DNA of 64,000 nucleotides from Minutocellus sp. GHC0000111. Taxonomy: Eukaryota. The DNA lies in NCBI GenBank assembly GCA_977018835.1, contig OZ361260.1, forward strand, positions 558,001 through 622,000, in the 5' to 3' direction. The notes under the pieces were generated by a model. That model was not told where the DNA came from and searched no databases. It worked only from the letters and a program-made list of their open reading frames with translations. Position numbers and translations under genes: made by a program. The first letter of the stretch is position 1, and each line of letters starts with the position of its first letter. Below, one piece after another: positions 2,415 to 48,894 of this stretch.

Positions 2415-5126
2415 CTAGATGTCAAAAGACATGTCCTCGGAACGCATTCCTGCATAATGCGGCGCTTCTTCGCCGTAGCCTCCACCGGCACCGCCATACT
2501 GATCCACATCGTCTCGGTAGTCATATCCATATCCACCTCCACCTCCACCGGTACCGCCGTAGTAATCCTCTCCTCCAGTCCCTGCGTACGCCCCCCCACC
2601 GCTATGATAACGGCTTGAATTTCTCTCCACAGACACACCGGGTCTTCTCCGGCTGGCGGATCGACGACCATCGTCTTGCCCGCCTTTGCTCATGGAATTT
2701 TTGAAGCTGAACATCTTGGACTTCTTCTTGAGGCCCTCCACCTTCATTGACATTTCCTGATTTTTTGTCACCTGCTTGGAATATCCCTTGAGGTTCTTCT
2801 TAAGCTCTCTCGTACTCTGCTTCTGCTGTTTCCTTTGCTTTACAAAAGCCTCTCGCTCCGCCTGTCGGGCCAATGTTGCCTTCTGCTGATCGGCATCGAG
2901 CTTGAGCAAATGCTCACGTTTTTGCTGTTCCGTCATAGCCCTGGCCTGTTCCGATGCAAACATGCGCTGAGCAACTTCCAATTCCTTAGCTTGCTTTTCC
3001 AAGGCAGCCTTCTGCGAAGCCTCGAACATTTGTAGTCGAATCCGCTCAGCCTCGATCTCCTTTTGCAAGCGCTTCTTGTCAGCTTCATTTTTCTTCACAG
3101 CATCAATCTGCAGCCTCTCAATTTCCTGCGAACGAAACAAAATGGGATGAATTACAAGGCAATATGGAGAATTGTCAACGGTAAGAGAGGGGAAAATACG
3201 AGGGATATTGCCCAGTGCGTGCGCAGCAAAGATTCCAAAATTAAATGAATCGATATCGAGCATCTCACCTTCATCTTCTCCTTGACGAGACGCTGGTGCT
3301 GCCTTTCGAGGTCAGAAAGATACTTTTCTTGCTCCTCCTTGGCTTGATTGAGCGCTCTGGCTTGAATCTTTTGTCTCTCATCAAGACGCTTCTGCTCCCG
3401 CTTCATCTTGGCTGAGAACTGTCTCTTCTGTTTGACTTCTGCCTTCAGAAGCGCTTCGACCTGCATCTTCTTTCGATGTTCCTGCTCCACATGCGCCTTT
3501 TCCAGACGTTTCTTCTCCATCACAAGCTTCTTTGCAGCCTTCTTCTCGTCCTTGGACTTGAATTTTGTTGGAGTGAAATTGTCCGTGGCGACCATCTTGT
3601 CAAACTCATGAGAACCAACGGCCATATCGTTGTCGCTGGTCAGGAAGCTGTTGGTGTTGGTAGGATTCCTCGGGCTTTCGCCTCCTTCTTCATCGCCAGC
3701 ATCTCTACTCATCATACCATTGCGCCCGTGTTTGACGGGGGACATTGGCCGGCTCCTTGATTTGCTCAAACCGGCAGGTCCACGCTTGAAGTTTTTGCCA
3801 TTCTTTGTCGGCTTACCTGTTGATTTCGAGGCATGAAGGACGGAATAGAAAAATTAGAAAGGACCGAAGGGAAAACACACTTACTTGCGATAGAAAGGAA
3901 ATGGCGAAACTCACTCTTATCGAACATTCCCTCAAAGCGACTGCCATCCGGTCGAATCAAAACGCCAAAGCCCTGTCGGAATCCATTTACCCATTCGCCT
4001 TCGTATTGCTCTCCGGTCACTGTCTGGACCCTACCCTTACCGTGCTTCTGCCAGTTGGAGAAGTTTCCCTCGTATAGATTTCCTTCGGCATCCTGTACGC
4101 ATGCGTGTCCTGGAGTCGAAACCAACAGAAAAAGAAAGGATAAAGATAAATGCCATGGTTAGAATTCGCATCCTTCGATTGCCAAAAGCTCAGTGCGCAT
4201 CATTCCCCGCCTAGCATAAACGTACCATTTTTGACCATCTGTAGTGTTCCATGGTGCCAGCGACCCTCGAACATACCCGTGCCATCTCTTCGGATGACTT
4301 TAGCATCTCCATGAGGCTGATGGTCTTGCCACATACCTTCGTAGCGGTCGCCACTTTTGGCATAGTGGATGGTACCGAGGCCATCGCGTTTGCCCCCGAG
4401 CATTTGGCCAGAATAGACGTTGCCGAAGGCATCAGCTTGGTTTTGCACCAGGACCCGTCCGGCATTGGTATTGGTATCATTGGCGCCAGCGTCACTGATC
4501 ATGGACAGGTTGCCCATAGTCTTTTCTTCGTCCTCGTCGTCACTTTCGGCTCCGCCGCAGCCGTTCGCAACGCAGGACTTGATCTGCCGGGAGATTCCTG
4601 TCATCACGAGATCGAAAATGGATGGGTCTTCATCGCCATCATCGCGCGCTTTTGAGTTTCTCGACCCTTTGCTACTGTTTCCAGATTGGCTACTTCGCCC
4701 TGTTTCGTTCCCGGCATTGTTGGGAATTGGAGCACCGCCACCCGGGAAGGCACCGAATGGAAGCGGCGGAAGAGCGGTAGGATGACCACCATAGTAGTTT
4801 GCAGCGCCGGGAGGAAGAGGAGGAGCGACACCCCTAGTAGGGCGGTGGGGAACAAATGCTGTGGTATCTCCCATTTCGGCAGATGCTCCGGGAGATCCTC
4901 CCATGGCACCAGCACCCCCAAAGTTGGGTATCGTCGTGGCGCCGGCATTACCTTGCGTATTGTAGTTTGTCATTGGAGCAGCCATTGCGCGACCGCCAAA
5001 GCCACCTCCGGCGGCAGCCATCTGAGGTGGATAGTGTTGAGGAGCGACGCCGCCACCGTAGCCGTAGCCACCTCCATATGGGGCACCGCCGGGTTGCGGT
5101 GGATATTGTTGCTGCTGCTGATCCAT
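2415..5126 (-). CDS. MORN-repeat protein with C-terminal coiled coil (4 exons)
   Basis: MORN repeats (YSGQMLGGKRDGLG, YEGMWQDHQPHG, YEGNFSNWQKHGKG, YEGEWVNGFRQGFG). GT-AG introns at 4225-4110, 3914-3817 and 3268-3126 join four ORF segments in frame. Confidence 0.8.
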
Positions 5127-9338: not shown

Positions 9339-10421
9339 TTACGATCGCTTGCTCTTCTTGGGCTTGACGTAGGACTGAACATAGAACTGAGCGAAGAGGA
9401 AGAAGAGACTCAAGATGTAAACGAGGTAGACGAAGATAACACGGAGGCTGGTCTTCTCGCACTGAGTGGCGAGGAGGAAGGTGGCCTGGCTCATCATGGT
9501 GACGAACTGGATCATCTGCATGAGGGTGAGGTAGGACTTCCACCAGATGGGAAGGGACTTGCCGGTCTTGTAGTCCTTGGTGTGCATGCAGATGAAGTAG
9601 TAGGTGTACATGACGGTGTGGATAAAGCCGTTGAGGAAGATGGTGAGGTAGATGTCTCCGTCGTAGTTGACGTGGGAGTTGAGCCAGTAGAAGAGGAAGA
9701 TGGTGGTGTGGTGGTAAACATGGAGGAAGGAGAGCTGGCGCCACTTCTTGCCGATGACGATGAAGATGGTGTCCCAGAAGTCCCAGACCTGTACGTGGCA
9801 GAAAATAGTGATAGGTTCAAGGCGGCAGAAATTAATTGGGGTAGGGAAAAATGATGATATTTCGAGAGAGGCAACTCAACTAACAAGAGCAAGGGACTGG
9901 TCATTTGTGCTTCCTGCATGTCACGGCGTCATGGCGCCTCTTTTGTAACGCCCCCGCACAACGATCGTCCTAGCTAGATTCAACTTTTGCCCACAATCAC
10001 CGTTATTATAGCGAAACACAGCCACGCAGGTGCATAGTAAATCACATACCTTGGAAATGTAGAACAACCAGAGGAGGTTGGCAAGGGGGGGATTGGTGGT
10101 GTCGTAATCATTGCACGGGAGGACGGTGTAACCGTTGCGGTAGGCAAGGAGGAAGGCCTCGATGGTCATGTACGCGCACAGCATGATCTGCGAAACGTTG
10201 TAGATGAACTTGAGGGGGTAGGGGTCCATGGCGGGAAGGCCGGAGTACTTCATGACGGCCGAACCGATGATGACGAAGCCAACGTAGACGGAAGCGACGG
10301 TGGCGGCCGAGGTAAAGTCGGTGAGGAACCAGCCCTCGGTGTAGCCGCGGAACTGCTTCTCAGAGTCGGCCCATTCCAAGATGGAATCGCCGATGGGCTC
10401 CAGAGTGTCACTAAGGCTCAT
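9339..10421 (-). CDS. ELO/GNS1-family polyunsaturated fatty acid elongase (delta-6-elongase-like)
   Basis: Motifs KVWDFWDT, QLSFLHVYHH, HTVMYTYY, TLMQMIQF and a C-terminal Lys-rich tail. One intron at 10049-9789. Confidence 0.92.
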
Positions 10422-10744
10422 GGTTGCTGTATTCTCTTGCTTATTCCCAAGTAACCGGAGGGTAAAGGCGGCAAAACGAGTCGAGAGGTCGAGTCGATAC
10501 CGGGCAAAAAATTGAAGTCGTCCATGGCATGGCGGTTTCCGCCAGGAGTTGAAGGACAGACGAAGTACGTGGCGTCTCCGGGTTTCTTTCAGCATGCTCC
10601 TTTCTCTTTATGCCTCTCGCGCGCGCCGATGACGAGTGAGTGATGACGAAGCAAGGCGAGCGACGGTACGCAGGGGGAAGACCGCAACGGCATAATTTGG
10701 GATAATACGCATACTAATACACACTGATTCGCGCACATAATAAA

Positions 10745-11353
10745 ATGAAGGGCTCGATAGTTCTCAGCGCACTCTGCCTTGTAGCACAGGCCCATGTTGC
10801 GTCTGCTTTCGCCCCGATACAGCAGCTGGCTACAAGCAAATCTGATGGTGTTGCAGCATTCGCCACCCATCAGATGAAGAGTAGCAGAGCGGGAAGAGTG
10901 GTGCTCTCAATGTCGGATGGTGATGGGAATGATAGCATGTCCAGCGAAATGTCAGCGGCGGAGGTATCGGCTGCTGCCCCGTCCTCTCCTCCCGCCGCCT
11001 CGCCTATCGCCGAATCCAAGAGCGATGTGCCACTCGACGTGCCCAGTCCGATCCTACTTGCTGGATCGATGGTCCTGGCCATCGTATCGACCGGATCGAT
11101 CTTCGAGCTCCTCAGCGGAAGTCCTCAGTATGGCATGGTCCCGACTGCGCTGTTTGCTGTTGTTGGTACGCCCCTATGCTTCTTTTTGTTCTATGCGGCA
11201 ATCCTCAAGGGCAATGCTGAGACGGAAGCCGATGACCAACGGTTCATGGACAGCAGCAAGAATAGCAGTTCGGGATTCTTTAGAGATTCTCGGCGAGTTG
11301 GCAGTGCCTTTCTTTTGGTACATGCTGCGCTAGTATTGGTCAGACCTAAGTAA
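10745..11353 (+). CDS. plastid-targeted small two-TM membrane protein
   Basis: Canonical ASAFAP presequence (AHVASAFAP) and two hydrophobic helices. The true stop may be the TAG at ~11281-11283 if a T-run is miscalled. Confidence 0.75.
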   Translation: MKGSIVLSALCLVAQAHVASAFAPIQQLATSKSDGVAAFATHQMKSSRAGRVVLSMSDGDGNDSMSSEMSAAEVSAAAPSSPPAASPIAESKSDVPLDVPSPILLAGSMVLAIVSTGSIFELLSGSPQYGMVPTALFAVVGTPLCFFLFYAAILKGNAETEADDQRFMDSSKNSSSGFFRDSRRVGSAFLLVHAALVLVRPK

Positions 11354-11993
11354 CTTCATAGAGAAGAGTGCAAAGAGAACAAAAACATGAGAAGTTCTTC
11401 TTTCTTTTCACCATTTTTTTGCACATGAGTTCTGCCCTCCTCTTGGAACTCCATTGAGTCGCATGAACAGCTGAGTACCTACATTTTCCTGAAAGTATCG
11501 CAAATATGGAAGAAGGAAGGGACGATAACTGCAAAAAAGAAGGCGGCATAGCAAGATAATATGTTCCGGTATGCACCACGGCGTACTTTCTCTCCAGAGT
11601 GAGTGAGATCGAGAGCTGCTTGCATTGGATTATGGTGCGGCGCACATTTCTTTTTCTCCATTTTGCGCCAAGAATCAAAACTATGAGTGACGTGGTCACA
11701 CACGGCCGGCCCACCAAAAACGACGACACGCTCTCTCTCTCTCGAATGCGAAAGCAACGGTGAGAACAAATCGAGAAGCGGGGGCCGAAGCGAGAGAAGG
11801 ACGAGATACTACTCAGTATTCCGGCCCACCTCCCTTCATTCTGTTTCAACCGTTAGACCTGCAGTTCCCCACTCTTCGCCCGCCTACCTCCGCGGTCCAA
11901 TTGTGTACGCCGTATCTTGAGAATTCTTGTTCGGAGCACTGTCCTTCAATTTACCTGTTTTGTGCACATCCACCACCCCGACAAACCAAACAA

Positions 11994-13964
11994 ATGAGCA
12001 ATACCATGAGCAAGGGGGGGGACGAGGAGGCGGCCCTCGCCGGAGATATCGAGACGAGCGTTAGCTTCCACCAGCGCAGCGTGGCCAATGGCGATTCCAA
12101 TATTGCGAGCAACGACGCAGCAGACGACACGTTTGTCAATGACGAGAAGAAGAGCAAGGAGGCCCCTTCGTCCTCTAAGCCCAACGGCGGCGGCGGCGAT
12201 GACGACGATGACGAGCGACTGTTCCAGTTCATGACGGGAATCAAGGAGGACCTCAACGCCCGCGCTCCGCTGTACAAGGACGACTGGGGCAAACCCAGAT
12301 CGGTGTTTACCGTCATTAATGCCACCGTCTTTGCATTCATCATTCAGCTCATCCCGGCGCTGATTTTTGCCGAGCTCATGGCCCGAGAGACCCAGAACAA
12401 CCTCGCCGTGGCTGAGGTGGTCCTCTCCAGTGCCGTTATTGGTATCATCTACGCCATCTTTGCCGGTCAGCCCCTGGTGATTATGGGCATTACTGGTCCC
12501 GTCGCCATTCTTCTCGGTACGTCCTACCGACTCACCCAAACCTTCGAGGCGGAGTACTTCCCCTTCTTCTTTTGGGTGTGCATCTGGGCAGGTGCGATGC
12601 ACATTGTGTCTAGTATGATCGGACTGGTCAACCTGGTTTGGAAGGTCACGCCATTCACGTCGCAAATCTTTGAGTTCTTCATTGGCATCTCCTTCATTTA
12701 CCTGAGTGGTCGCGATCTGATTGAGCCACTTTATCTTGGCCAAAGCGACGTCGATCCGGCTGAACGGGCGGGACAGTATGCCACCCTGCTGCTGGGCATC
12801 TTGACGTGCTACATTTCCTACACCCTGCACTTTGCCGAGACCTGGACGCTCTTTACTCGACAGGTTCGCACCGTCTTGACGGCTTACAACACCTTGTTCG
12901 CGGTTGTCATCGTTACTGGCCTCAGTTATCTGCCAGGTGTGGATATGGGCACCCTGGATCGTGTGGATGTGTTGGCGCCCTGGGATTGGCAACCCACCGC
13001 CGACAGGCCCTGGGTAACAAATCCTCTCCAGGGGATGTCAGCGTCGGCAATCTTTGGTGCCATCATTCCCGGTCTCATGTTCTTCCTGCTGTTCATCATC
13101 GATCACAACGTATCGAGCATTTTGAGTCAAGTGCCCAAATACAACTTGAAGAAGCCCGCAGCGTATCATTGGGATTTCTTCGTGCTTGGTATCACCTTCA
13201 TTCCCTGTGCCATCCTTGGCCTGCCGCCGGGCAATGGTCTCATCCCACAGGCTCCGCTTCATGTCCGAGCTTTGTGCACTCGCAAGATTGAAACGGACAA
13301 ATACGGAGTGAAGCGGGAGGTGGTTACGTACGTCGAAGAGCAGCGGTGGTCCGGTCTCGGCCAGGCCCTTTTGATGTTTGTTGCTCTCGCGGCCTTCCGT
13401 GTCATTAGCTGGATCCCACGTGGCGCTCTCTTCGGTCTGCTCTTGTATCTTGGCATTGGCGCTTTGCACGGGAATGAAATTTGGGAGCGCACAATCTTTT
13501 GCCTCATGATTGCCAAGAAGCGCCCTCCCATTCCGGTCGTTACCGATGTGAAGTGGCGAACGGTTCAGTTCTTCACCCTGATTCAGCTGGTTTGTGCCTT
13601 TTCGGTCTTCATTGTGGCCAACTTTACATCTGTGGGGTACCTTTACCCGCTCCTTCTCGTGATTTTGGTTCCCATCCGTTCGTACATTCTGTCCCGCATC
13701 TTTTCGGAAGCAGATCTGAAGCGACTTGACCCGCATGGCAAGGAAGAGGAGAACGAAGATAACTACCACGAGGAGCAGCGCATCATTCATCAGCATCAGA
13801 GGAATGAATCGATCGATTCAGAAACAATGGAGTTCCCTCACTTTGGCGAGTTCCGAGGACAAGGTCATTCAGAACTGCATCATCGGACAACGTCGGCCCT
13901 CACTGAAGACAAGGATGGTGGCGGCGACGGTGACAATAATGATGCCAGCGCCAAGAATGTTTAG
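11994..13964 (+). CDS. SLC4/BOR-family anion transporter (bicarbonate or borate)
   Basis: GIKEDLNARAPLYKDDW, FAGQPLVIMGITGP, LKKPAAYHWD, NGLIPQAPLH and VEEQRWSGL motifs; multiple TM segments. Confidence 0.9.
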   Translation: MSNTMSKGGDEEAALAGDIETSVSFHQRSVANGDSNIASNDAADDTFVNDEKKSKEAPSSSKPNGGGGDDDDDERLFQFMTGIKEDLNARAPLYKDDWGKPRSVFTVINATVFAFIIQLIPALIFAELMARETQNNLAVAEVVLSSAVIGIIYAIFAGQPLVIMGITGPVAILLGTSYRLTQTFEAEYFPFFFWVCIWAGAMHIVSSMIGLVNLVWKVTPFTSQIFEFFIGISFIYLSGRDLIEPLYLGQSDVDPAERAGQYATLLLGILTCYISYTLHFAETWTLFTRQVRTVLTAYNTLFAVVIVTGLSYLPGVDMGTLDRVDVLAPWDWQPTADRPWVTNPLQGMSASAIFGAIIPGLMFFLLFIIDHNVSSILSQVPKYNLKKPAAYHWDFFVLGITFIPCAILGLPPGNGLIPQAPLHVRALCTRKIETDKYGVKREVVTYVEEQRWSGLGQALLMFVALAAFRVISWIPRGALFGLLLYLGIGALHGNEIWERTIFCLMIAKKRPPIPVVTDVKWRTVQFFTLIQLVCAFSVFIVANFTSVGYLYPLLLVILVPIRSYILSRIFSEADLKRLDPHGKEEENEDNYHEEQRIIHQHQRNESIDSETMEFPHFGEFRGQGHSELHHRTTSALTEDKDGGGDGDNNDASAKNV

Positions 13965-23430: not shown

Positions 23431-23575
23431 ATATATATATACAAATATATACTAAAGTAGATCGATCTATAGATGTAGATCAGACTTGTCTACGATTACT
23501 AACGGTGTTAGAACCTCCAAGTCGACAGAGCAAACACTACAGAAGTGAAGAAAGACAAGCAGAGACACACATGTA

Positions 23576-26500
23576 CCTTTCGAGTTCAGAGGAATTGAAA
23601 GTGACGTGATGATGACGTATTAGAAACACGACCACACCAGACCAAAAATCCAAGCTCACTTTTTCTAACTCCGAGGAATAAATGACGGCCAAGATGGAAG
23701 TCGGGGCAAGAACCAAGTTATGGTCACCAACTTCTACATATAGTCGAGAGATATTGTGCACCAGAACCAATAAATGTACATTATGTGATGATTTTTTTCG
23801 ACATTTGCATTCCTCACCCCCGGGAAAAAATGCATTTTTGGAAGCACCAAATCAAAATGTAATGAATAGAAATGGACATGCTATGATAAGTTATAGCAAA
23901 TCAATGACTCCATCGTCTTCATCATTTTCATCTATGTCGTCCTCAATGTCATCATCTTCGCCGGGAGCATCAATTGGCCAGAGTGGTTCACCATCCTCTT
24001 CAGCTTCTTCCTCGGCAATTTTTGCGAGACCAGCCTTTCCCCGTCTGGTCTCCACAAGATTGTTACCGCCACGACTTCTCTTGATGTTGTTATATATCAC
24101 TGGAAGTTTTCCAAATACATTGAGAAAGGCCTCTTTTGATGCGACATTGGCCCATACTTTCATCACAGTCTTGTCAAGAGCATTCGCATCATTCTTCTGA
24201 CCGCGATGCTCCTTTTCGACGGCCGACTGCAAAGACATCCAGATGCCGAGATCAAGAACATTTGTCTCGGGCGACCGAGGAACCTGCTGGATTATCTCAA
24301 TCTTATATTTGTTTTTGAGGTCCTCGGTGTACTTCTCAACTGCTTCATTGGACCCATGACCGCCGGCATTGTCCATCATAAGACACATAACATCAGACTC
24401 CTGAACATTTTGTGGATCCCACTTCACCCAATGATGTGCGTCTCGAATCGCCTTCCCGACCTCATTCATAGTCTCCAACATCCATTTGGAGTCGCAGCTA
24501 CAGTCCTTGGTAACCTTATCGCCCCGTTGATACCGCACCCCGAGCTCAAGGTCGTCGATCTCAACCATCACCTTCTCTCCATTGCTATCAGGAGTGTGTC
24601 GCTTGAGACTCGAGATCTTTTGATTGTAGCCAACAGCGGCATGCTTGCGACTTTTTGCCTGACCGTCGGATTTATAGTCCTCGTGTTGAAGTTCCAATCG
24701 CTCTGTAACAAACTCAGAAAGGCCGTAGATTTCGGCAATGTGGTCGCAAAGATGGCCGGCGGTCATGTCAGCATTCTCGTCGTAAATGTCGCGCCAATCT
24801 TTGTCATTTTTTAGCGCAACGTTGACCTTAGCATCTGGAGAGAAATTCTGATTACGCGTAAGCTTTTCCACCTTCTGCTCCCTGGCGACTCTCTTGATCA
24901 TGATGCGCCCATTGAAATCAACGTCTTTGGTTTCATCCTTCATTGGTCGGCCAACAACTCCAAGACACATAACTTTGACAGGGTGTCTTCTGGATCGAAT
25001 TTTCGGGCTTTCCTCGGAAGCATGGACAGACGCGAGGTTCGGACTGCTTAGTTCTTCGTCAGAAAGTGGCAACATCTTGATCTTTCGTCGCCGAGTAGCA
25101 GTGTAAAACCACTTTTCATCAAGACACGCTACAGGAATGTTGCGATCGGTCGCAATGTCCTCCCACTTTTCGATCCAATCAAGTCGCTTCCTGCAACATT
25201 CGGGGGAGAGCCTCGGCTTCTCGATCGACGACTTCTCCTCACCGCCTTGCTTTTTCCACCAGCGAAAAAGCTGAAGACGATGGAGACTAATTGTCAGCCT
25301 ATCTTCATCTGGAGTAGCTGATTTTGCGCTCATGCAGTCAGCTAGCTCCTTAAAGGTTGCCATCGCACCCTCCATCCGAGCAGCATGCCGATGCAGCTCG
25401 CGGAGATGTCCTGGCTCCTTCTCCTCGATCATGTCCGTGCATGCCTTCCTTCCACGAACCTCCTTTCTGCCGATGGGATTGCTGATGCCATCAGCAAGGC
25501 TTTTTTGTAGAGCTGGTCTCTCCACTTGTAAAGCTGAGAACCACCGGTTGACTTGGCACAACCGTGATCGCACGCAACTTGCCGACACGCGGCAGTTGCA
25601 ATTTGTTGCCGGTCTTCATGCGTGCGAGTTGGGTCGCCGTGTCCCCACCAATCCGCGAGAGCCACGGCGCTGAACCGCATTCTTTCATTCGCCTGCTTTT
25701 CTTTTCTGATTGGTGTTGGTTCGGTGACGGTTGCATTGGGACGAGGAGGACGGAGCATGTCATCGTTGGCCATCCGAACAACAAAGTCGAGGCAGAGAGC
25801 GACCTTTACCTGTTCATCAATGTCACTGGAGGTGGCACAGACAACGGAAGCATCGGCTCCTCCTAAACCTTCATCATTGGGGGAGGCTGCAGCTGCTTCA
25901 GTGGCGGAAGTGTCACCAGTTCCCTTCAGCATGCTGAGGAGACTTGCTGGCATCCAACCCAGTTTCTTGGCCTCGTCGACTGCTAGTGATTTTGCTCTTG
26001 CTTCGCAATGCGCTGACTGTGCCTCCTTTCTGTGAGCTGACAACCTCTCACCTAGCTTAGTAGCTAAGACAGTCGAGCGCCCAGAGAACAGAGCTTCATC
26101 GGGATTTCTTTTCTCGTGCACCTTCTGTCCCTCCGGTCCAGAGAATTTCGGGTGGTTGTCCTCCTTCTTTTTACGCAACCTGTGAGCACAAACACAAAGC
26201 GCCCTGCGTCTTGTCTTCCCTCTCGGCCGACACGTCGACAAGTGCAACTTCAAACTACAATGCTCCTTGAGATGTTGCTGCACATCCTTCCATTTTTCCT
26301 CGTTGTACTGTAGCTCATGCCTTCCTCCACCGACGGACTTGGAACGCAACAAGTCGGCCTCGATGAAAGCAGGGAGGACGTCTTCCCATTTCTGCCGAGA
26401 ACCAACACAAATGTCATCTTTGCCGCAGGAATCGGGGGTCACTCTCCACCACAGATCCTTACCAGCCCTTCGAATGACATCTGCTGCAAGGAGAAAGGCC

Positions 26501-27026
26501 ATGGGGATGGGAGGAGGGGCCGTCCTCTTCTTCGCCGACGACGGTGACGGTTTGGCGGGGGCGAACTTGACCGTGGCCGCTTCTTCGACGTGTTTGCGCT
26601 CGGCGATGGTGTTTTCGGCTCAGCTGCCGCCTTTGCCGCCTTCCTGGATGCCTTGGTGTTGCCTCTCTTGCTCCCTGAGAACGAAGTTCTGCTGCGTTTG
26701 TATTTTTTGGGCGTGGTCTGGTTGGTCGTCGTCATCGTCACAAAATTTGCGGGTTGCGGTGAGAGAGGGTGTGTGCGGGGGACCAAAAAATGTGTGTGTT
26801 CCTGCCAGAATCTACTGGACCTGCGAATTCAGTGGATACTACTGGTCGGTGGCAACCTACTGAACGAGCAGGTCCAGTAGATATCCACGAGTTGAGGAGT
26901 ATTTGCGTTCCTCCCGAAGAGAACATCGACTAACGAAACACGTGGTGGGAAATGAGAAATGGGTGCAAGAATGACCTTTTTAGGGGTTATTGGTATACCC
27001 TCTACAAATCCTCTGAAACCGAAAGG
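23576..27026 (-). mobile_element. Tc1/mariner DNA transposon, DD39D (plant-mariner-like) group, copy 1
   Basis: TA flanks at 23574-75 and 27027-28; imperfect ~22-bp TIRs CCTTTCGAGTTCAGAGGAATTG / CCTTTCGGTTTCAGAGGATTTG; near-identical to 44177-47606. Confidence 0.92.
23891..26735 (-). pseudogene. disrupted DD39D transposase (copy 1)
   Basis: LDEKWFY, KVM.LGVVGRP, MDNAGGH and QVPRSPETNVLDLG motifs, with exactly 39 residues between the 2nd and 3rd Asp. Frameshifts at ~25500 and ~26505. Confidence 0.88.
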
Positions 27027-27172
27027 TAGAGCGGGTTATGGGAACCATAACATTGGGTTCGCTCGCTCGCGTGACTTGTGCGAACCTTTCGTGCGTCAGT
27101 CGACCGACCGACCGCCTCCTCACTTTTCTTCGGAACTTGTCAGTTCGAATTCGGCAAATTGCATCAAGTCAG

Positions 27173-28135
27173 ATGGACTCCACCCCCGACGCCGTGCTGC
27201 GCCATGCGTTTGACTATGTGCCGTCAAAAGCTTTCTTGCCAGTAGCGAATGTCTCGAAGCGTTTTCGATTCGTCTGGTTGGCGGATGATGCGTCAGCGCT
27301 GAGCTCATCACCGGCCTCAGATGCAGAAGGAAAAGTACCGGCAGATGATGATGAACGAAAAATGCCGGCCCGAACTGATAATGAGACCGATGACGAGCAC
27401 AAAATGCCTGCCATGGAGATGGATGATTCCGAACAGCCAACAACGACGTCAGCCGCAGAACTGAGGGCGGTATGGTCGAGCGGCGATAACGGCAACCATG
27501 CCGATGATGCCAACAAGGAGAAAGCCAAGGCAGGCCAAAAAGCCCCAACTACTCCACGCGATAGAAGGCTCACAAACCCGCTACAAATTGGAAATCTATT
27601 TAGTGTCCCATGGAACAAGCCCGCGAGAAAATCTCTAAATACACAACTACTCGCATATTTTATCGAGCAGGGATGGAAAGGAAAATGCAAAATGCGAAGT
27701 GTCCTGACTGGAGCAGCTGCACGAGGGGATGTTGAGGGCATGGAGTACATATTCGATAACGATTTGTATCCGGAAGATGATATCGAGATTTGCACTATTG
27801 CTGCAGCGGCTGGACAGCTGGACGCACTGGTTTGGCTTCGAGAAGTCAGGAAGCTGCCATGGGACCCGACTGAGATCCACCGCGAATCAAGCGAGAATTT
27901 ACACGAGGATGTGATGGAGTACGTGGAAAAGAATAATATCAAAAGACAATTCCTTCAAATATTTGTAGCGATCACTGGCAGAGAAATGCCCTGCCGTCAT
28001 ATCAATCTTGAGGCATGTCGGGCCGGATTCAGGGCTTGCTTGGTGGCGCAGCTCAGCGGCATGCTTGGCGGGCTCTGTGGGAAGGTGGAAGGTAGGAGCA
28101 TAAGTGAAAGGAAATTAGTGACAAGACAAAAATAA
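27173..28135 (+). CDS. ankyrin-like repeat protein (native 3' end apparently lost near 27940)
   Basis: N-terminal FLPVANVSKRFR; degenerate ankyrin repeats AAARGDVEGMEY and AAAAGQLDALVWLRE...PWD. The tail after 27940 is antisense of the neighbouring gene's last exon. Confidence 0.7.
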   Translation: MDSTPDAVLRHAFDYVPSKAFLPVANVSKRFRFVWLADDASALSSSPASDAEGKVPADDDERKMPARTDNETDDEHKMPAMEMDDSEQPTTTSAAELRAVWSSGDNGNHADDANKEKAKAGQKAPTTPRDRRLTNPLQIGNLFSVPWNKPARKSLNTQLLAYFIEQGWKGKCKMRSVLTGAAARGDVEGMEYIFDNDLYPEDDIEICTIAAAAGQLDALVWLREVRKLPWDPTEIHRESSENLHEDVMEYVEKNNIKRQFLQIFVAITGREMPCRHINLEACRAGFRACLVAQLSGMLGGLCGKVEGRSISERKLVTRQK

Positions 28136-32738: not shown

Positions 32739-32960
32739 ACTCCAGGCAGGTAACATTTCGTTTTGGTCGTCCTCATTCTTCAGATTTTGCGTTCACTGAA
32801 GAAGAAAGAAAGGCGGTCAGTTTTCATTTTTAGAGATACGATGCCACCAAATAAACTTAATAGACCTTTGCTAATGCCGATCGAGCTACTATACGTAGTC
32901 AGTGCCGGTACATTGCAGCTGCCGGTTGGGAGAGGTACAGGGCCTGTAGACTCTAAACAA

Positions 32961-33160
32961 NNNNNNNNNNNNNNNNNNNNNNNNNNNNNNNNNNNNNNNN
33001 NNNNNNNNNNNNNNNNNNNNNNNNNNNNNNNNNNNNNNNNNNNNNNNNNNNNNNNNNNNNNNNNNNNNNNNNNNNNNNNNNNNNNNNNNNNNNNNNNNNN
33101 NNNNNNNNNNNNNNNNNNNNNNNNNNNNNNNNNNNNNNNNNNNNNNNNNNNNNNNNNNNN
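32961..33160. other. assembly gap (200 N)
   Basis: Run of N. Confidence 1.
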
Positions 33161-34522
33161 GGCATGTGCTTTTGCCCTGTTCTCGTCAATGATTTCATCA
33201 GCTGCTTCAACAGCCGCTGCTCTGCATTTCTTTTCCACCTGTCGGGCATTCTTTTCGGTCGGATGGACGATGTCGGCCTTCGTGCAGAAATTCATGAAGC
33301 GACTTGCGTGCATGGCCTCATCTTCCGCTGCCTCCATCAGCTCCAAGTTCATTCCAGCCTGACTTCTAGAATGCTTTCTGCCGGGGCACACAACTTCTGA
33401 CCTCTGGCCGATCCAAGTGCAAAAAGAAAAAGGTTGGTTGCATCTATCGCATCGCCATTCAAATGTGACGCCGAATCCACGCCGAACTGGCTCGGCCGAG
33501 AGACACAGATTGCCGCACGATCGGTGGAGATTCTGCACGAAATCATGCAGCTGCTTCATCTCAACCACAACTCTTTTGCCGTTGAGCTGCACGCCGGTGA
33601 TGTTGGGACGATCGGTAGCGTTGGCGGTGGGAGTAGATGACCGACCGCCCGAAGAATTCTTGTCGGAATAATGTTTCAGTGTCGCGTTGAGATGGGGCCC
33701 ATGCTTTTCATCGTCCTGGAAGTAATTTTCAGGTGTGGTCGGCAGTGATCGCTTGCCATTGCGTTGAGAGCGTGGGCTGGCGTTATCGGCTATTCTGGAG
33801 AAGCGGTAGAAGGGCTTTGCAACGTCAAGGCCTGATATTTTCTCTGGACGTCGTCGTTGGATGTTGACCTCGTGTCGTGTTGGGACGTGTTGAAGAGATG
33901 ATCGAACAAGAGAGATCTCTAAGCTCGGCGACACGCCACCGCGCATCAAGACACGGACAAGCTCATCAATAGTGTAGTAAGTACATCTGACGTCGTCTGG
34001 GAATGAGAGCAAGAGTGAGAGGATTGCCTCCTTGGCGTTAGCACGTGATGTTTCCATGGTTGTTTTTTTGTTTTGCATCGGTTCTGGCGCAAGATGCGCT
34101 TTTCGATGAGAACCTTACAAAAAGAACCCCAAATGAGGGAGACGTGCAAAAATACCCCAAACAAATATCCCCTTACCTCCCAACAGCAAAACTTCAAGAT
34201 GTCTTCCCACCAGCACCACCAATGCTGGTTATGCGTCGGCCGAGACTAATTTCGGTCGATCCGACGATGATGTGTGCGTCGACTGTTGCATTTCTGAGGG
34301 AGAGTTGATTCATCGAAGTTCCTCTGAACCAAGTGTTCCTGGAGGGATTTCCGACTTAATGCTGAAAGGAACGTCGATGACTCTTCGCCACTGTGGAGAG
34401 CGGCGGCCTTCGATGAGGAGCCCATTGTCACGTTGGAGTGCTAACTTTGGCGATGGTGCGAAGAAAAAACGGCACAAAACACGCTTTTTGGGGGCTTCCT
34501 AAAAGTTATGGACAGCGCCCTC
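33161..34522 (-). mobile_element. 5' part of a DNA transposon (Kolobok-/Mutator-like transposase N-terminus), truncated by the gap
   Basis: ORF with C..C-type pattern HRSCGNL...RGFGVTFEWRCDRC followed by MNLELM...FMNFC, resembling the N-terminal half of PF20700-like transposases. Candidate terminus TTAA|GAGGGCGCTGTCCATAACTTTT at 34526-34501. Family call is from memory of motifs. Confidence 0.55.
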
Positions 34523-43532: not shown

Positions 43533-44176
43533 GGTGGAGAATGGCATGAAGTGCAGTGCTGAAAGATCCGCCGTATCCATCCACGTTGGATTTTCCCCAG
43601 TTTTTCTGATGTCATCATGAGGTCATTGTTCCCGCCTACCCAGCCCGCCAACTCTGCTCGGCTGAAGCCGCCGACTCACATGCATGCTGCCGCCTGATGC
43701 CCACCCATGAATGATTAAGTATATTATATCCTTATAGGTGGGGACTGACTGCATGGCACGCGTGTTGCAGCATGCGCATCCGGTGGCGTGCGACAGCGCC
43801 GTCAGCGAGACGAAGACCGTCAGTCTTGGCTTGAAAAACACATGCAAATCTCCATTTCGTAAGCCATCCCTGTCCTCAGTGCCTGACCTCAGGTAGCCCT
43901 ACATGTGCTGATCCTCACCTCACCCTCACACAACCTTATCCTACAGTATTTTAATTTGCGCTCTTGTTTATGTTATCGATATTCGCTCTTGCTGATGCAA
44001 GTGCGGCTGCCGCTACATGCATTCAATTGAATTGGATCTGGTTCTAACCTTTTTCATTACGATCGACACATGTAGATACGTGTAGATTTAAGTTGTACTT
44101 AGCGGGGGGACACCACCACAAAAATGTCGAAAAGCACGATGAAAAAAATACCAACACTCTCTATGGCGTACTCGTG

Positions 44177-47100
44177 CCTTTCGAGTTCAGAGGATTTGAA
44201 AGTGACGTGATGATGACGTATTAGAAACACGACCACACCAGACCAAAAATCCAAGCTCACTTTTTCTAACTCCGAGGAATAAATGACGGCCAAGATGGAA
44301 GTCGGGGCAAGAACCAAGTTATGGTCACCAACTTCTACATATAGTCGAGAGATATTGTGCACCAGAACCAATAAATGTACATTATGTGATGATTTTTTTC
44401 GACATTTGCATTCCTCACCCCGGGAAAAAATGATGCATTTTTGGAAGAGCACCAAATCAAAATGTAATGAATAGAAATGGACATGCTATGATAAGTTATA
44501 GCAAATCAATGACTCCATCGTCTTCATCTATGTCGTCCTCAATGTCATCATCTTCGCCGGGAGCATCAATTGGCCAGAGTGGTTCACCATCCTCTTCAGC
44601 TTCTTCCTCGGCAATTTTTGCGAGACCAGCCTTTCCCCGTCTGGTCTCCACAAGATTGTTACCGCCACGACTTCTCTTGATGTTGTTATGTATCACTGGA
44701 AGTTTTCCAAATACATTGAGAAAGGCCTCTTTTGATGCGACATTGGCCCATACTTTCATCACAGTCTTGTCAAGAGCATTCGCATCATTCTTCTGACCGC
44801 GATGCTCCTTTTCGACGGCCGACTGCAAAGACATCCAGATGCCGAGATCAAGAACATTTGTCTCGGGCGACCGAGGAACCTGCTGGATTATCTCAATCTT
44901 CTATTTGCTTTTGAGGTCCTCGGTGTACTTCTCAACTGCTTCATTGGACCCATGACCGCCGGCATTGTCCATCATAAGATGCATGACATCAGACTCCTGA
45001 ATGTTTTGTGGATCCCACTTCACCCAATGATGTGCGTCTCGAATCGCCTTCCCGACCTCATTCATAGTCTCCAACATCCATTTGGAGTCGCAGCTACAGT
45101 CCTTGGTAACCTTATCACCCCGTTGACACCACACCCCGAGCTCAAGGTCGTCGATCTCAACCTTCACCTTCTCTCCATTGCTATCAGGAGTGTGTCGCTT
45201 GAGACTCGAGATCTTTTGATTGTAGCCAACAGCGGCATGCTTGCGACTTTTTGCCTGACCGTCGGATTTATAGTCCTCGTGTTGAAGTTCCAATCGCTCT
45301 GTAACAAACTCAGAAAGGCCGTAGATTTCGGCAATGTGGTCGCAAAGATGGCCGGCGGTCATGTCAGTGTTCTCGTCGTAAATGTCGCGCCAATCTTTGT
45401 CATTTTTTAGCGCATCGTTGACCTTAGCATCTGGAGAGAAATTCTGATTACGCGTAAGCTTTTCCACCTTCTGCTCCCTGGCGACTCTCTTGATCATGAT
45501 GCGCCCATTGAAATCAACGTCTTTGGTTTCATCCTTCATTGGTCGGCCAACAACTCCAAGACACATAACTTTGACAGGGTGTCTTCTGGATCGAATTTTC
45601 GGGCTTGCCTCGGAAGCATGGATGGACGCGAGGTTCGGACTGCTTAGTTCTTCGTCAGAAAGTGGCAACATCTTGATCTTTCGTCGCCGAGTAGCAGTGT
45701 AAAACCACTTTTCATCAAGACACGCTACAGGAATGTTGGGATCGGTCGTAATGTCCTCCCACTTTTCGATCCAATCAAGTCACTTCCTGCAATGTTCGGG
45801 GGTGAGCCTCGGCTTCTCGATCGACGACTTCTCCTTACCGCCTTGCTTTTTCCACCAGCGAAAAAGCTGAAGACGATGGAGACTAATTGTCAGCCCATCT
45901 TCATCTGGAGTAGCTGATTTTGCGCTCATGCAGTCAGCTAGCTCCTTGAAGGTTGCCATCGCACCCTTCATCCGAGCAGCATGCTGACACAGCTCGCGGA
46001 GACATCCTGGCTCCTTCTCCTCGATCATGTCCGTGTGTGCCTTCCTTCCACGAACCTCCTTTCTGCCGATGGGATTGCTGATGCCATCAGTAAGGCTTTT
46101 GTAGAGCTGGTCTCTCCACTTGTAAAGCTGAGAACACCGGTTGACTTGGCATGGCCGTGATCGTGCGCAACTTGCCGACACGCGGCAGTTGCAATTTGTT
46201 GCCGGTCTTCATGCGTGCGAGTTGGGTCGCCGCATCCCCACCAATCCGCGAGAGCCACGGCGCTGAACCGCATTCTTTCATTCGCCTGCTTTTCTTTTCT
46301 GATTGGTGTTGGTTCGGTGACGGTTGCATTGGGACGAGGAGGACGGAGCATGTCATCGTTGGCCATCCGAACAACAAAGTCGAGGCCGAGAGCGACCTTT
46401 ACCTGTTCATCAATGTCACTGGAGGTGGCACAGACAACGGAAGTGTCGGCGGCTCCTCCTAAACCTTCATCATTGGGGGAGGCTGCAGCTGCTTCAGTGG
46501 CGGAAGCATCACCAGTTCCCTTCAGCATGCTGAGGAGACTTGCTGGCATCCAACCCAGTTTCTTGGCCTCGTCGACTAGTGATTTTACTCTTGCTTCGCA
46601 ATGCGCTGACTGTGCCTCCTTTCTGTGAGCTGACAACCTCTCACCTAGCTTAGTAGCTAAGACAGTCGAGCGCCCAGAGAACAGAACTTCATCGGGATTT
46701 CTTTTCTCGTGCACCTTCTGTCCCTCCGGTCCAGAGAATTTCGGGTGGTTGTCCTCCTTCTTTTTGCGCAACCTGTGAGCACAAACATGAAGCGCCCTGC
46801 GTCTTGTCTTCCCTCTCGGCCGATGCGTCGACAAGTGCAACTTCAAACTACAATGCTCCTTGAGATGTTGCTGCACATCCTTACATTTTTCCTCGTTGTA
46901 CTGTAGCTCATACTTTCCTCCACCGACGGACTTGGAACGCAACAAGTCGGCCTCGATGAAAGCAGGGAGGACGTCTTCCCATTTCTGCCGAGAACCAACA
47001 CAAATGTCATCTTTGCCGCAGGAATCGGGGGTTACTCTCCACCACAGATCCTTACCAGCCCTTCGAATGACATCTGCTGCAAGGAGAAAGGCCATGGGGA

Positions 47101-47606
47101 TAGATAGGAGGAGGGGCCGTCCTCTTCTTCGCCGACGACGGTGACGGTTTGGCGGCCGCTTCTTCGACGTGTTTGCGCTCGGCGATGGTGTTTTCGGCTC
47201 AGCTGCCGCCTTTGCCGCCTTCCTGGATGCCTTGGTGTTGCCTCTCTTGCTCCCTGAGAACGAAGTTCTGCTGCGTTTGTATTTTTTGGGCGTGGTCTGG
47301 TTGGTCGTCGTCATCGTCACAAAATTTGCGCGGGTTGCGGTGAGAGGGGGTGTGCGGGGGACCAAAAAATATATGTGTTCCTGCCAGAATCTACTGGACC
47401 TGCGAATTCAGTGGATACTAATGGTCGGTGGCAACCTACTGAATGAGCAGGTCCAGTAGATATCCACGAGTTGAGGAGTATTTGCGTTCCTCCCGAAGAG
47501 AACATCGACTAACAAAACACGTGGTGGGAAATGAGAAATGGGTGCAAGAATGACCTTTTTTAGGGGTTATTGGTATACCCTCTACAAATCCTCTGAAACC
47601 GAAAGG
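44177..47606 (-). mobile_element. Tc1/mariner DNA transposon, DD39D group, copy 2
   Basis: Same TIRs and orientation as copy 1. Right flank TA (47607-08), left flank TG (44175-76). Similarity to copy 1 stops exactly at the TIR ends. Confidence 0.92.
44496..47314 (-). pseudogene. disrupted DD39D transposase (copy 2)
   Basis: Same motifs as copy 1. Stops at ~44901 (TAG) and ~45780 (CGA>TGA); frameshift at ~46135. Confidence 0.88.
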
Positions 47607-47643
47607 TACCGGCACATTCCAGAACCCGTGGTAATAATGGCGC

Positions 47644-48300
47644 TCAATCATCCTCCTCCTTCTTCTTGAAGATGCCTGACCAGGCCACGGGCTGCATTCC
47701 CGGCTGGAGCAGCGTAACGTAGATCTTCTTCCCCTGTTTCAATGTCTTGCCGCTCATTGTGCCAGATTCATCCATCTCGACGAGGGAGAAGGTGCACTCA
47801 TCTTCATTGATAAATCCAATCAATGGCTCCTTGTCAGAAAACACGGTCTTCTCGTCCTTGTCGTTCCCTCCTCTGTCAGACGTTGCCTTCCACTGTGTAC
47901 ATCATGTGTGTGTGTGCATGCAAATGATGGAATAGAATAAAAAGTATAAGTAAATTCTTGCTCATGAACATCCTCGCACTCACGTCGTCGCCACACAACA
48001 CACAAAAAGTCGACGCACCTGCGAGAACGCCTCCAGAGTTCCATCGTCGTTCGGGTAGAGCTTCAACTTCCGATTGCGGCCACAACCATGCCCAATCTCT
48101 TCCCTGTTGAGAAAGTTGATGCTACAGATGCCTTCACCGAGCCAGGTTCCCTTGAAGCCGCAGGGATCGTCGCCACCACCGTCGCCGGAGCCACCACCTT
48201 CGCCCAGGCCGCGAAGGTGCTGCTGCTGCTGCTCATCAGCCGCGGCGTTCGTTCCCTGCACAAACGGCAGAAAGAAGAGGGTGATAGGAACAATCTTCAT
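47644..48300 (-). CDS. small secreted protein with LRG-type propeptide motif
   Basis: Signal peptide MKIVPITLFFLPFVQG, QQQQHLRGL, in-frame intron 48018-47893. Confidence 0.65.
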
Positions 48301-48894
48301 CGTAAGATATGAAGTGGATACAAGTTTCTTTTGACACCGGAGAAAAATCGTATCTTTTTGGTAAGATGAAATGTGTGCGAAAAAAGGGATTTTCATCTTC
48401 CACCGTTCTCATTGCCCTTTTGTTATTTTTTTCTCTACTCTATTCGCACCGGTAGGTTTCGATATTCAGATTACCGGCTATGGTCTATCAAAAACGCACC
48501 ACGCTGATAACGAGTATGCCCTCCTCTCAGACATGCAGGATGCTATGCAGATTCTACTTCGAATCATTTCCATCAATGACGAGAGAGATTAACTTTTCCC
48601 ACGAGACGAGAGGTGGGACGAGCAGCAGCAGCATCATGTCTCACCTTATGCAGATGTGAAATAAGTATGTGCGATATCCGGATCGCCAAGAACCACTAAC
48701 TTTAGACACTCCTTTGCGATACCCTCCTATTGTCAATACGTAACATATAAATGGTTCTTGATGTATTATGTAGATCTACCGTTTTGAGTTTTGTTGTAGT
48801 TGAATCGACCACGGCCTTTGCATTCTGTTCTGCTAGCTAGAAGCTAGGCCTAGCTAGCTACGTAGCTAGTTAGTCTACGTAGTTGGCAGTGGGG

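What the first reader, a model, noticed from the sequence alone, without database searches (positions are those of the whole stretch)
44175..44176. Mutated target-site duplication polarises the change as TA>TG and places it outside the element
Seen: copy 2 is flanked by TG on the left and TA on the right; copy 1 has TA on both sides. Established: Tc1/mariner elements duplicate a TA, so both flanks were TA at insertion. Inference: the A>G change happened in situ after insertion and reaches at least the flank. This favours a chromosomal DNA-level process over transposition-intermediate errors. It is a single site, so weak alone.
Basis: partly seen in the sequence, partly recalled or inferred. 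Interest (0 to 1): 0.7.

Follow-up and report, generated by a model that had tools for sequence, protein, structure and literature searches.

The report
TpA hypermutation hits diatom transposon footprint
One of the two TA letters that a jumping gene duplicated when it landed in this diatom genome now reads TG, and the site without the insertion still reads TA; this is likely one hit of a mutation process that has rewritten most TA steps in the middle of this genome's jumping genes while sparing host genes, a process so far in print only for one unrelated alga.

Summary
Confirmed. Copy 2 (44177-47606) of a DD39D mariner has TG left and TA right; copy 1 has TA/TA. Stronger evidence fixes the direction family-wide: in 40 genomic copies, conserved Tyr codons in RTAY context became His or Cys in 330 of 418 cells, in YTAC context 4 of 132, background 37 of 5558. 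A Mutator family shows the same spectrum; a host gene keeps 16 of 16 Tyr. At least two other copies carry TG target sites. But 'reaches the flank' is overstated: 14 of 14 flank RTAY sites match the empty allele, and the rate falls from 90% mid-element to about 10% near that end. The window's own junction was not seen in listed contigs. Enzyme unknown; adenine deamination is inferred. Closest known: TpA hypermutation in Bigelowiella (bioRxiv 2026). This scan noted the same process before in other diatom genomes; added here are the empty-site test, the RTAY preference and the boundary. By analogy with Hsmar1, this TG would slow excision.

The parts
44175..44176 (+). Left target-site duplication of copy 2, TG, derived from TA (context G-TA-C)
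   Evidence: Sequence; empty site TA in X1 and X2
44177..47606 (-). Copy 2 of a Tc1/mariner (DD39D) transposon, 3430 bp; 22-bp terminal inverted repeats at 44177-44198 and 47585-47606 (20 of 22 match)
   Evidence: skipped exactly by the empty-site contig
47607..47608 (+). Right target-site duplication of copy 2, TA, intact (context G-TA-C)
   Evidence: Sequence
44559..47047 (-). Broken transposase of copy 2 (frame break near 46134, stops near 45782 and 44903); most conserved Tyr in the middle are His or Cys
   Evidence: tblastn with P0004; codon table
44930..46895 (.). Core of copy 2 without any RTAY (0 seen, 28.8 expected from composition)
43637..44174 (.). Left flank, identical to the empty allele over 43637-44173; 9 RTAY intact, nearest at 44168-44171
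47609..48371 (.). Right flank, identical to the empty allele of X1; 5 RTAY intact
23574..27028 (-). Copy 1 (23576-27026) with TA on both sides; core 24540-26300 has 0 RTAY (25.6 expected)
32780..34114 (-). Mutator-like transposase fragment of a second family with the same signature (2 RTAY, 14.8 expected, in 32940-34150 without its N run)

Best explanation
The TG is a TA target-site duplication changed at or after insertion, most likely by a mutation process of this diatom that turns TpA into TpG or CpA in transposon DNA. Shown: the empty site has TA; copies of two unrelated DNA-transposon families have lost TA steps on both strands; RTAY is the preferred context; the rate peaks mid-element and falls towards the ends; host genes and the flanks are spared. 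Inferred: the process acts on integrated chromosomal copies, repeatedly and independently (His and Cys both arise from one Tyr codon), at a few hundred times the background rate. Inferred and untested: the chemistry is adenine deamination to inosine on either strand, aimed by chromatin or RNA marks laid on the element, whose reach ends about at the TSD. Predicted by analogy: besides wrecking the transposase, a TG at this position would slow excision of the copy by any intact transposase.
For: Empty site TA. Other copies with G-TG-C at the TSD: a right end in X7 (1 of 6 contigs in the shown rows at 47607-47609), a left end in X2 (row 44192), and a third in X5 and X2 inferred from where the aligner clipped (row 44174). 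44 of 70 substituted bases between the two window copies are TA/TG/CA changes, 14 of them CA/TG pairs. Tyr sites: RTAY 330 of 418 cells changed, YTAC 4 of 132, YTAT 26 of 54; His 208, Cys 148, Arg 4; site-level test p=2e-4; residues W,K,E,Q,F,P,D,L 37 of 5558. Outgroup transposases keep Tyr. Read depth shows TA, TG and CA states side by side, e.g. 44981-44985 and 46036-37. Mutator family: commonest exchanges C/Y, C/H, A/T, I/V, A/V. Host: 264 RTAY against 310 expected in 14 host stretches; SLC4 transporter 16 of 16 invariant Tyr kept. Both TSD orientations are seen, so not only the gap-filled strand is hit. Hsmar1 flanked by 5'-TG is slowed at second-strand cleavage (PMC2800235).
Against: The window's own left junction was not found among listed contigs. 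The TSD lies at the end where interior RTAY sites are least hit (3 of 29 cells at 513-750 bp from it). TSD counts are few, cut by table limits, and on the left biased towards TG by the reference. The empty allele could be a precise excision through a 2-base overlap ('both'=2), in which case it is no independent pre-insertion witness; X5 holds the filled right junction with at least 2 flank differences from the window, so the insertion may be older than flank identity with X1 suggests. One of the 14 CA/TG pairs (45368-69) has the non-TA state in 17 of 17 copies, so it needs two steps. Copies share descent, so cells overstate independence. No enzyme was identified and no genome was held.
Confidence: 0.8

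Rival explanations
1. This one TG is an ordinary point mutation or an assembly error, unrelated to the family-wide process.
For: Single site; own junction not seen in listed contigs; copy 2 carries 19 differences from copy 1 outside TA/CG steps.
Against: About 0.7% expected from background transitions; exact class and favoured context (G-TA-C); other copies show the same TSD change.
Confidence: 0.1
2. The TG arose once, during repair of the 2-base gap at integration (G put opposite the template T), not later in place.
For: At a left end the + strand TA is the newly filled strand (established mariner mechanism); two of the three other TG cases are also left ends.
Against: The X7 right-end TG changes the old strand (one contig, and a 1-base deletion would read alike); left-end counts are biased by the TG reference; interior sites need the general process anyway.
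Confidence: 0.07
3. CpG methylation decay (CG to TG or CA) explains the CA/TG pairs and the TG.
For: 7 CG-versus-TG/CA differences between the copies, 6 derived in copy 2; diatoms methylate transposons (PMC9998398, search listing only).
Against: The empty site is TA, not CG; ancestral residue is Tyr, not Arg (4 Arg against 356 His/Cys); 186 CG steps are shared and RCGY is not depleted in the cores (20 each) while RTAY is absent.
Confidence: 0.02
4. Same targeting but another chemistry: an error-prone polymerase (Pol eta-like A-to-G at WA, recalled) or a modified T or A that miscodes, not an adenine deaminase.
For: Sequence alone cannot tell an A lesion from a T lesion in a palindromic step; no enzyme found.
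Against: Sharp four-base preference (YTAC 3%, RTAY 79%) with background under 1% fits a motif-reading enzyme better than a sloppy polymerase (inference).
Confidence: 0.35

Closest known systems
TpA-specific hypermutation of integrated NCLDV and virophage DNA in Bigelowiella natans (bioRxiv 10.64898/2026.01.13.699255; parts 1-4 of 5 of the text read, supplements not seen)
   Same: TpA to TpG and CpA on both strands, confined to foreign or selfish DNA, far above background; the paper also finds DDE and reverse-transcriptase domains among TpA-poor genes and proposes an ADAT2-like DNA deaminase.
   Different: Here a diatom (stramenopile), multicopy cut-and-paste transposons, near saturation mid-element, a four-base preference (RTAY over YTAC), a fall towards the ends and a hit on the TSD. 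The preprint's main text has no 'diatom', 'flank', 'target site' or 'context'. Its rate was measured in mutation-accumulation lines; mine is inferred from copies.
Repeat-induced point mutation (RIP) of ascomycetes (recalled)
   Same: Context-specific transitions that riddle repeats and spare unique genes.
   Different: Opposite direction: RIP makes TpA from CpA/TpG; here TpA is consumed. Dependence on pairing or sex is untested here.
Tc1/mariner DD39D transposons; flanking-TA need of Hsmar1 and Mos1 (PMC2800235, passages and section 20; PMC4344528, abstract and introduction)
   Same: Inverted repeats, TA duplication, DDD triad with 39 residues between the last two; 5'-TG is the tested change that delays second-strand cleavage, and it alters the T next to the transferred-strand end that is called critical.
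   Different: Those tests changed both ends of animal mariners in vitro; here one end, in a divergent diatom family, untested.

Membership tests
Tc1/mariner, DD39D type (clade name recalled) | Terminal inverted repeats | tested here: met
   22 bp, 20 matching
Tc1/mariner, DD39D type (clade name recalled) | TA duplicated on insertion | tested here: met
   One TA at the empty site; TA at 3 of 4 window ends
Tc1/mariner, DD39D type (clade name recalled) | DDD catalytic triad, 39-residue spacing | tested here: met
   P0001, P0004, P0005 all 39; no Pfam hit for the window protein, some relatives carry PF01498
Bigelowiella-type TpA hypermutation | A-to-G and T-to-C transitions at TpA on both strands | tested here: met
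   His 208, Cys 148 at Tyr codons
Bigelowiella-type TpA hypermutation | Confined to foreign or selfish DNA | tested here: met
   Two transposon families hit; 14 host stretches and SLC4 spared; one window only
Bigelowiella-type TpA hypermutation | Rate about 1000-fold above background per generation | not testable with these tools
   Only a copy-based ratio of a few hundred-fold (255 of 284 against 37 of 5558)
Bigelowiella-type TpA hypermutation | Acts on single-copy DNA, no repeat needed | not testable with these tools
   No genome held; both families here are multicopy
Bigelowiella-type TpA hypermutation | TpA without wider context, as reported | tested here: inconclusive
   Here RTAY 79%, YTAT 48%, YTAC 3%; the preprint's mutation table (supplement) was not seen
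Bigelowiella-type TpA hypermutation | ADAT2-like candidate deaminase | not testable with these tools
   No genome held
Fungal RIP | C-to-T at CpA, gaining TpA | tested here: not met
   TpA is ancestral and lost
CpG methylation decay | CG ancestral at the changed sites, CpG depleted | tested here: not met
   Tyr not Arg ancestral; CG observed/expected 0.9 in both copies

The most novel reading that the evidence does not exclude
Diatoms run a motif-reading DNA adenine mutator (RTAY) that marks each transposon as a unit, strongest in its middle and ending at the target-site duplication; it kills the transposase through its tyrosines and, for TA-inserting elements, also jams the excision signal, so it both disarms and pins them. 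It would be a natural double-strand A-to-G editor shared by stramenopiles and rhizarians or evolved twice.
Probability: 0.45. Interest if true: 0.88.

Novelty: new variant of a known kind. Interest (0 to 1): 0.7.

Why it matters
A targeted A-to-G DNA mutator is the mirror image of RIP and is in print, as far as six searches show, only for viral inserts of one rhizarian alga. A diatom case on a young, still polymorphic family of about a hundred or more copies makes it testable: every TSD is a site of known ancestral state (TA) and known start time, so TSDs and empty alleles give a clock, a strand test and a boundary map. It also warns that Tyr-to-His/Cys changes and GC gain in diatom repeats are mutational, and it points to a natural DNA adenine deaminase, an activity mostly known from engineered editors.

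Tried and rejected
No whole genome is held, so TSDs could not be scored genome-wide and no enzyme could be sought. A metagenome scan with the inverted-repeat pattern gave 2 loci, neither with transposase: L001 matches only the pattern, L002 about 50 bases of an end. X16 held only one short piece of the stretch laid. The protein atlas did not answer; the host group came instead. Look-ups of earlier findings by place, by sequence and for TSD/RTAY words were empty. Rejected: CpG decay and RIP as drivers (above); selection by the element against internal TA, because the changes destroy invariant Tyr and differ between copies; 2-base micro-inversions for the CA/TG pairs, because TA intermediates are seen in depth tables and proteins; spreading into flanks at 20% or more per site (0 of 14, P=0.044; 10% is not excluded, P=0.23). 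Rows dropped: P0149 (same contig, length and counts as P0010) and P0012 (57% identity) are not among the 40 copies; Tyr site 715 (0 of 10 changed) was missed by the script's context filter because copy 2 has a stop there, and is added by hand (330 of 408 becomes 330 of 418; end bin 3 of 19 becomes 3 of 29).

Full report
Observation. The window holds two copies of one 3.4-kb element, 23576-27026 and 44177-47606, with 22-bp inverted repeats. Copy 1 is flanked by TA and TA, copy 2 by TG (44175-76) and TA (47607-08). The minus-strand transposase has a DDD triad with 39 residues between the last two aspartates; I file it under Tc1/mariner DD39D (clade name recalled). The host is a diatom: the named relatives of a host bicarbonate transporter are diatom proteins. 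No whole genome is held. Depth of single family contigs is 10,000-13,000 against about 90-110 in the flanks, which suggests on the order of a hundred copies (the tool warns that depth is no copy number); one protein cluster has 275 members.

In run X1 a 1303-base contig of depth 87 covers 43637-44173 and 47606-48371 with no other letter and skips the element. In X2, the same sample, a contig matches to 44175 and continues with the letters that follow the right TA. The empty site therefore has one TA, and the TG is derived. Two cautions: two bases fit either side of the joint, so a precise excision would give the same allele; and no listed contig spans the window's own left junction, while X5, another sample, holds the filled right junction with 3 other letters and 3 gap letters in 526. 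Background makes a chance hit unlikely: 6 transitions outside TA/CG steps in 3420 columns between the copies give about 0.7% for the 8 TSD bases (my arithmetic).

Other TSDs. In the shown loose-end rows, 1 of 6 right-end contigs of X7 continues G after the T (187 rows not shown). At the left end (8 rows not shown) one X2 contig reads TG, two read TA, and four X5 contigs have a consensus ending in TA. A further contig present in X5 and X2 aligns exactly to 44174, which the aligner does only if 44176 matches, so it is probably TG (inference). All TG cases sit in G-TA-C. The left sample is biased to TG by the reference, and CA-type sites would be clipped elsewhere, so no rate is given. TG at a left end changes the strand filled in at integration, TG at a right end the old strand; both occur, which argues against fill-in error alone.

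The process behind it. Of 70 substituted bases between the copies, 44 are TA/TG/CA changes (14 CA/TG pairs, 16 single), 7 are CG-type, 19 other. Intact relatives keep Tyr where the genomic copies have His or Cys: 240 of 411 conserved-Tyr cells changed in 44 proteins. With 40 copy proteins from long contigs (a sample of the clusters; their origin in this genome is inferred from identity and shared contig lengths), RTAY-context Tyr changed in 330 of 418 cells at 23 sites, YTAT in 26 of 54, YTAC in 4 of 132; His 208, Cys 148, Arg 4; control residues 37 of 5558 (one site added by hand). His and Cys can both come only from TAY, so hits are independent and on both strands. Read depth shows the same three states. 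Most CA/TG pairs trace to TA by codon; one is ambiguous (45002) and one (45368-69) has the non-TA state in 17 of 17 copies and needs two steps. The cores have 0 RTAY against 25.6 and 28.8 expected, with RCGY undepleted; 14 host stretches have 264 against 310. A Mutator family in the same assembly (16 proteins of clusters with 170 and 1 members) shows the same exchanges; the host transporter keeps 16 of 16 invariant Tyr.

Where it stops. Among sites still polymorphic, the changed share is 3 of 29 at 513-750 bp from the left end, 17 of 40 at 800-1200, 255 of 284 at 1200-2100 and 9 of 19 at 2600-3000. Outside, 14 of 14 RTAY sites in 1300 flank bases equal the empty allele, one only 3 bases from the TSD, and an AT run 123 bases left of copy 1 is intact. 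Spreading at 20% per site is unlikely (P=0.044), at 10% not excluded. So the TSD marks the edge of the affected block, not a reach into the flank; and because every copy carries TA there, it is part of the shared repeat.

Mechanism. Shown: direction, both strands, context, restriction to transposons, gradient. Inferred: action on integrated chromosomal DNA, since cut-and-paste elements have no copied intermediate. Untested: adenine deamination (about 55-60% of my weight on chemistry) against a miscoding modified base or an error-prone polymerase; guidance by chromatin or RNA. Consequence by analogy: Hsmar1 flanked by 5'-TG is delayed at second-strand cleavage (PMC2800235), and the T next to the transferred-strand end is called critical while the A is not (PMC4344528 introduction); the TG here changes that T, whereas the X7 right-end TG changes the A.

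What is known. Six searches found no paper on this signature in diatoms or at TSDs; the library lacks most subscription journals, and the preprint's supplements may hold context data. This scan has noted the process in other diatom genomes (37 notes hold my search words); these are unchecked notes and no support. Verdict: real, correctly polarised, weak alone but backed by family-wide evidence; a new variant of a kind described once.

Noticed in passing
window 47609-47896 and 27029-27334: Both copies have no RTAY in the first 288 and 306 bases of their right flank (each seen from 3-4% of non-transposon start points). For copy 2 the empty allele is identical, so this is not spreading unless that allele is an excision.
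   Followed up: partly
left end, rows 44189, 44192, 44196 of X2: Three other copies appear to have 2-17 base deletions inside the left inverted repeat just behind its first bases.
   Followed up: no
loose ends; L002 2010-2034: Target sites are often G-TA-C, and several flanks are rich in short palindromes with TAGGCCTA or GTAC; the element tends to land in the context the mutator prefers.
   Followed up: no
window 45116, 45130, 45781, 45985, 47444, 47513: CpG-decay-type changes are lopsided: 6 of 7 are derived in copy 2, suggesting it was methylated longer or more than copy 1.
   Followed up: partly
window 45368-45369: A CA/TG pair whose family state is not TA; needs an ordinary change to TA followed by fast removal, or a route through CG.
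   Followed up: partly
transposase residues 113, 603, 618, 672 (P0004 numbering): His in every copy and never Cys: probably hits fixed in the master element before it spread, so a partly edited element was still active.
   Followed up: no
window 32961-33160: A run of 200 N inside the Mutator-like reading frame; counts there leave it out.
   Followed up: yes
window 44332-47608, runs X7 and X6: Contigs of RNA libraries cover the element and carry mostly the family's majority letters; transcription is not shown, as DNA can be in such libraries.
   Followed up: no
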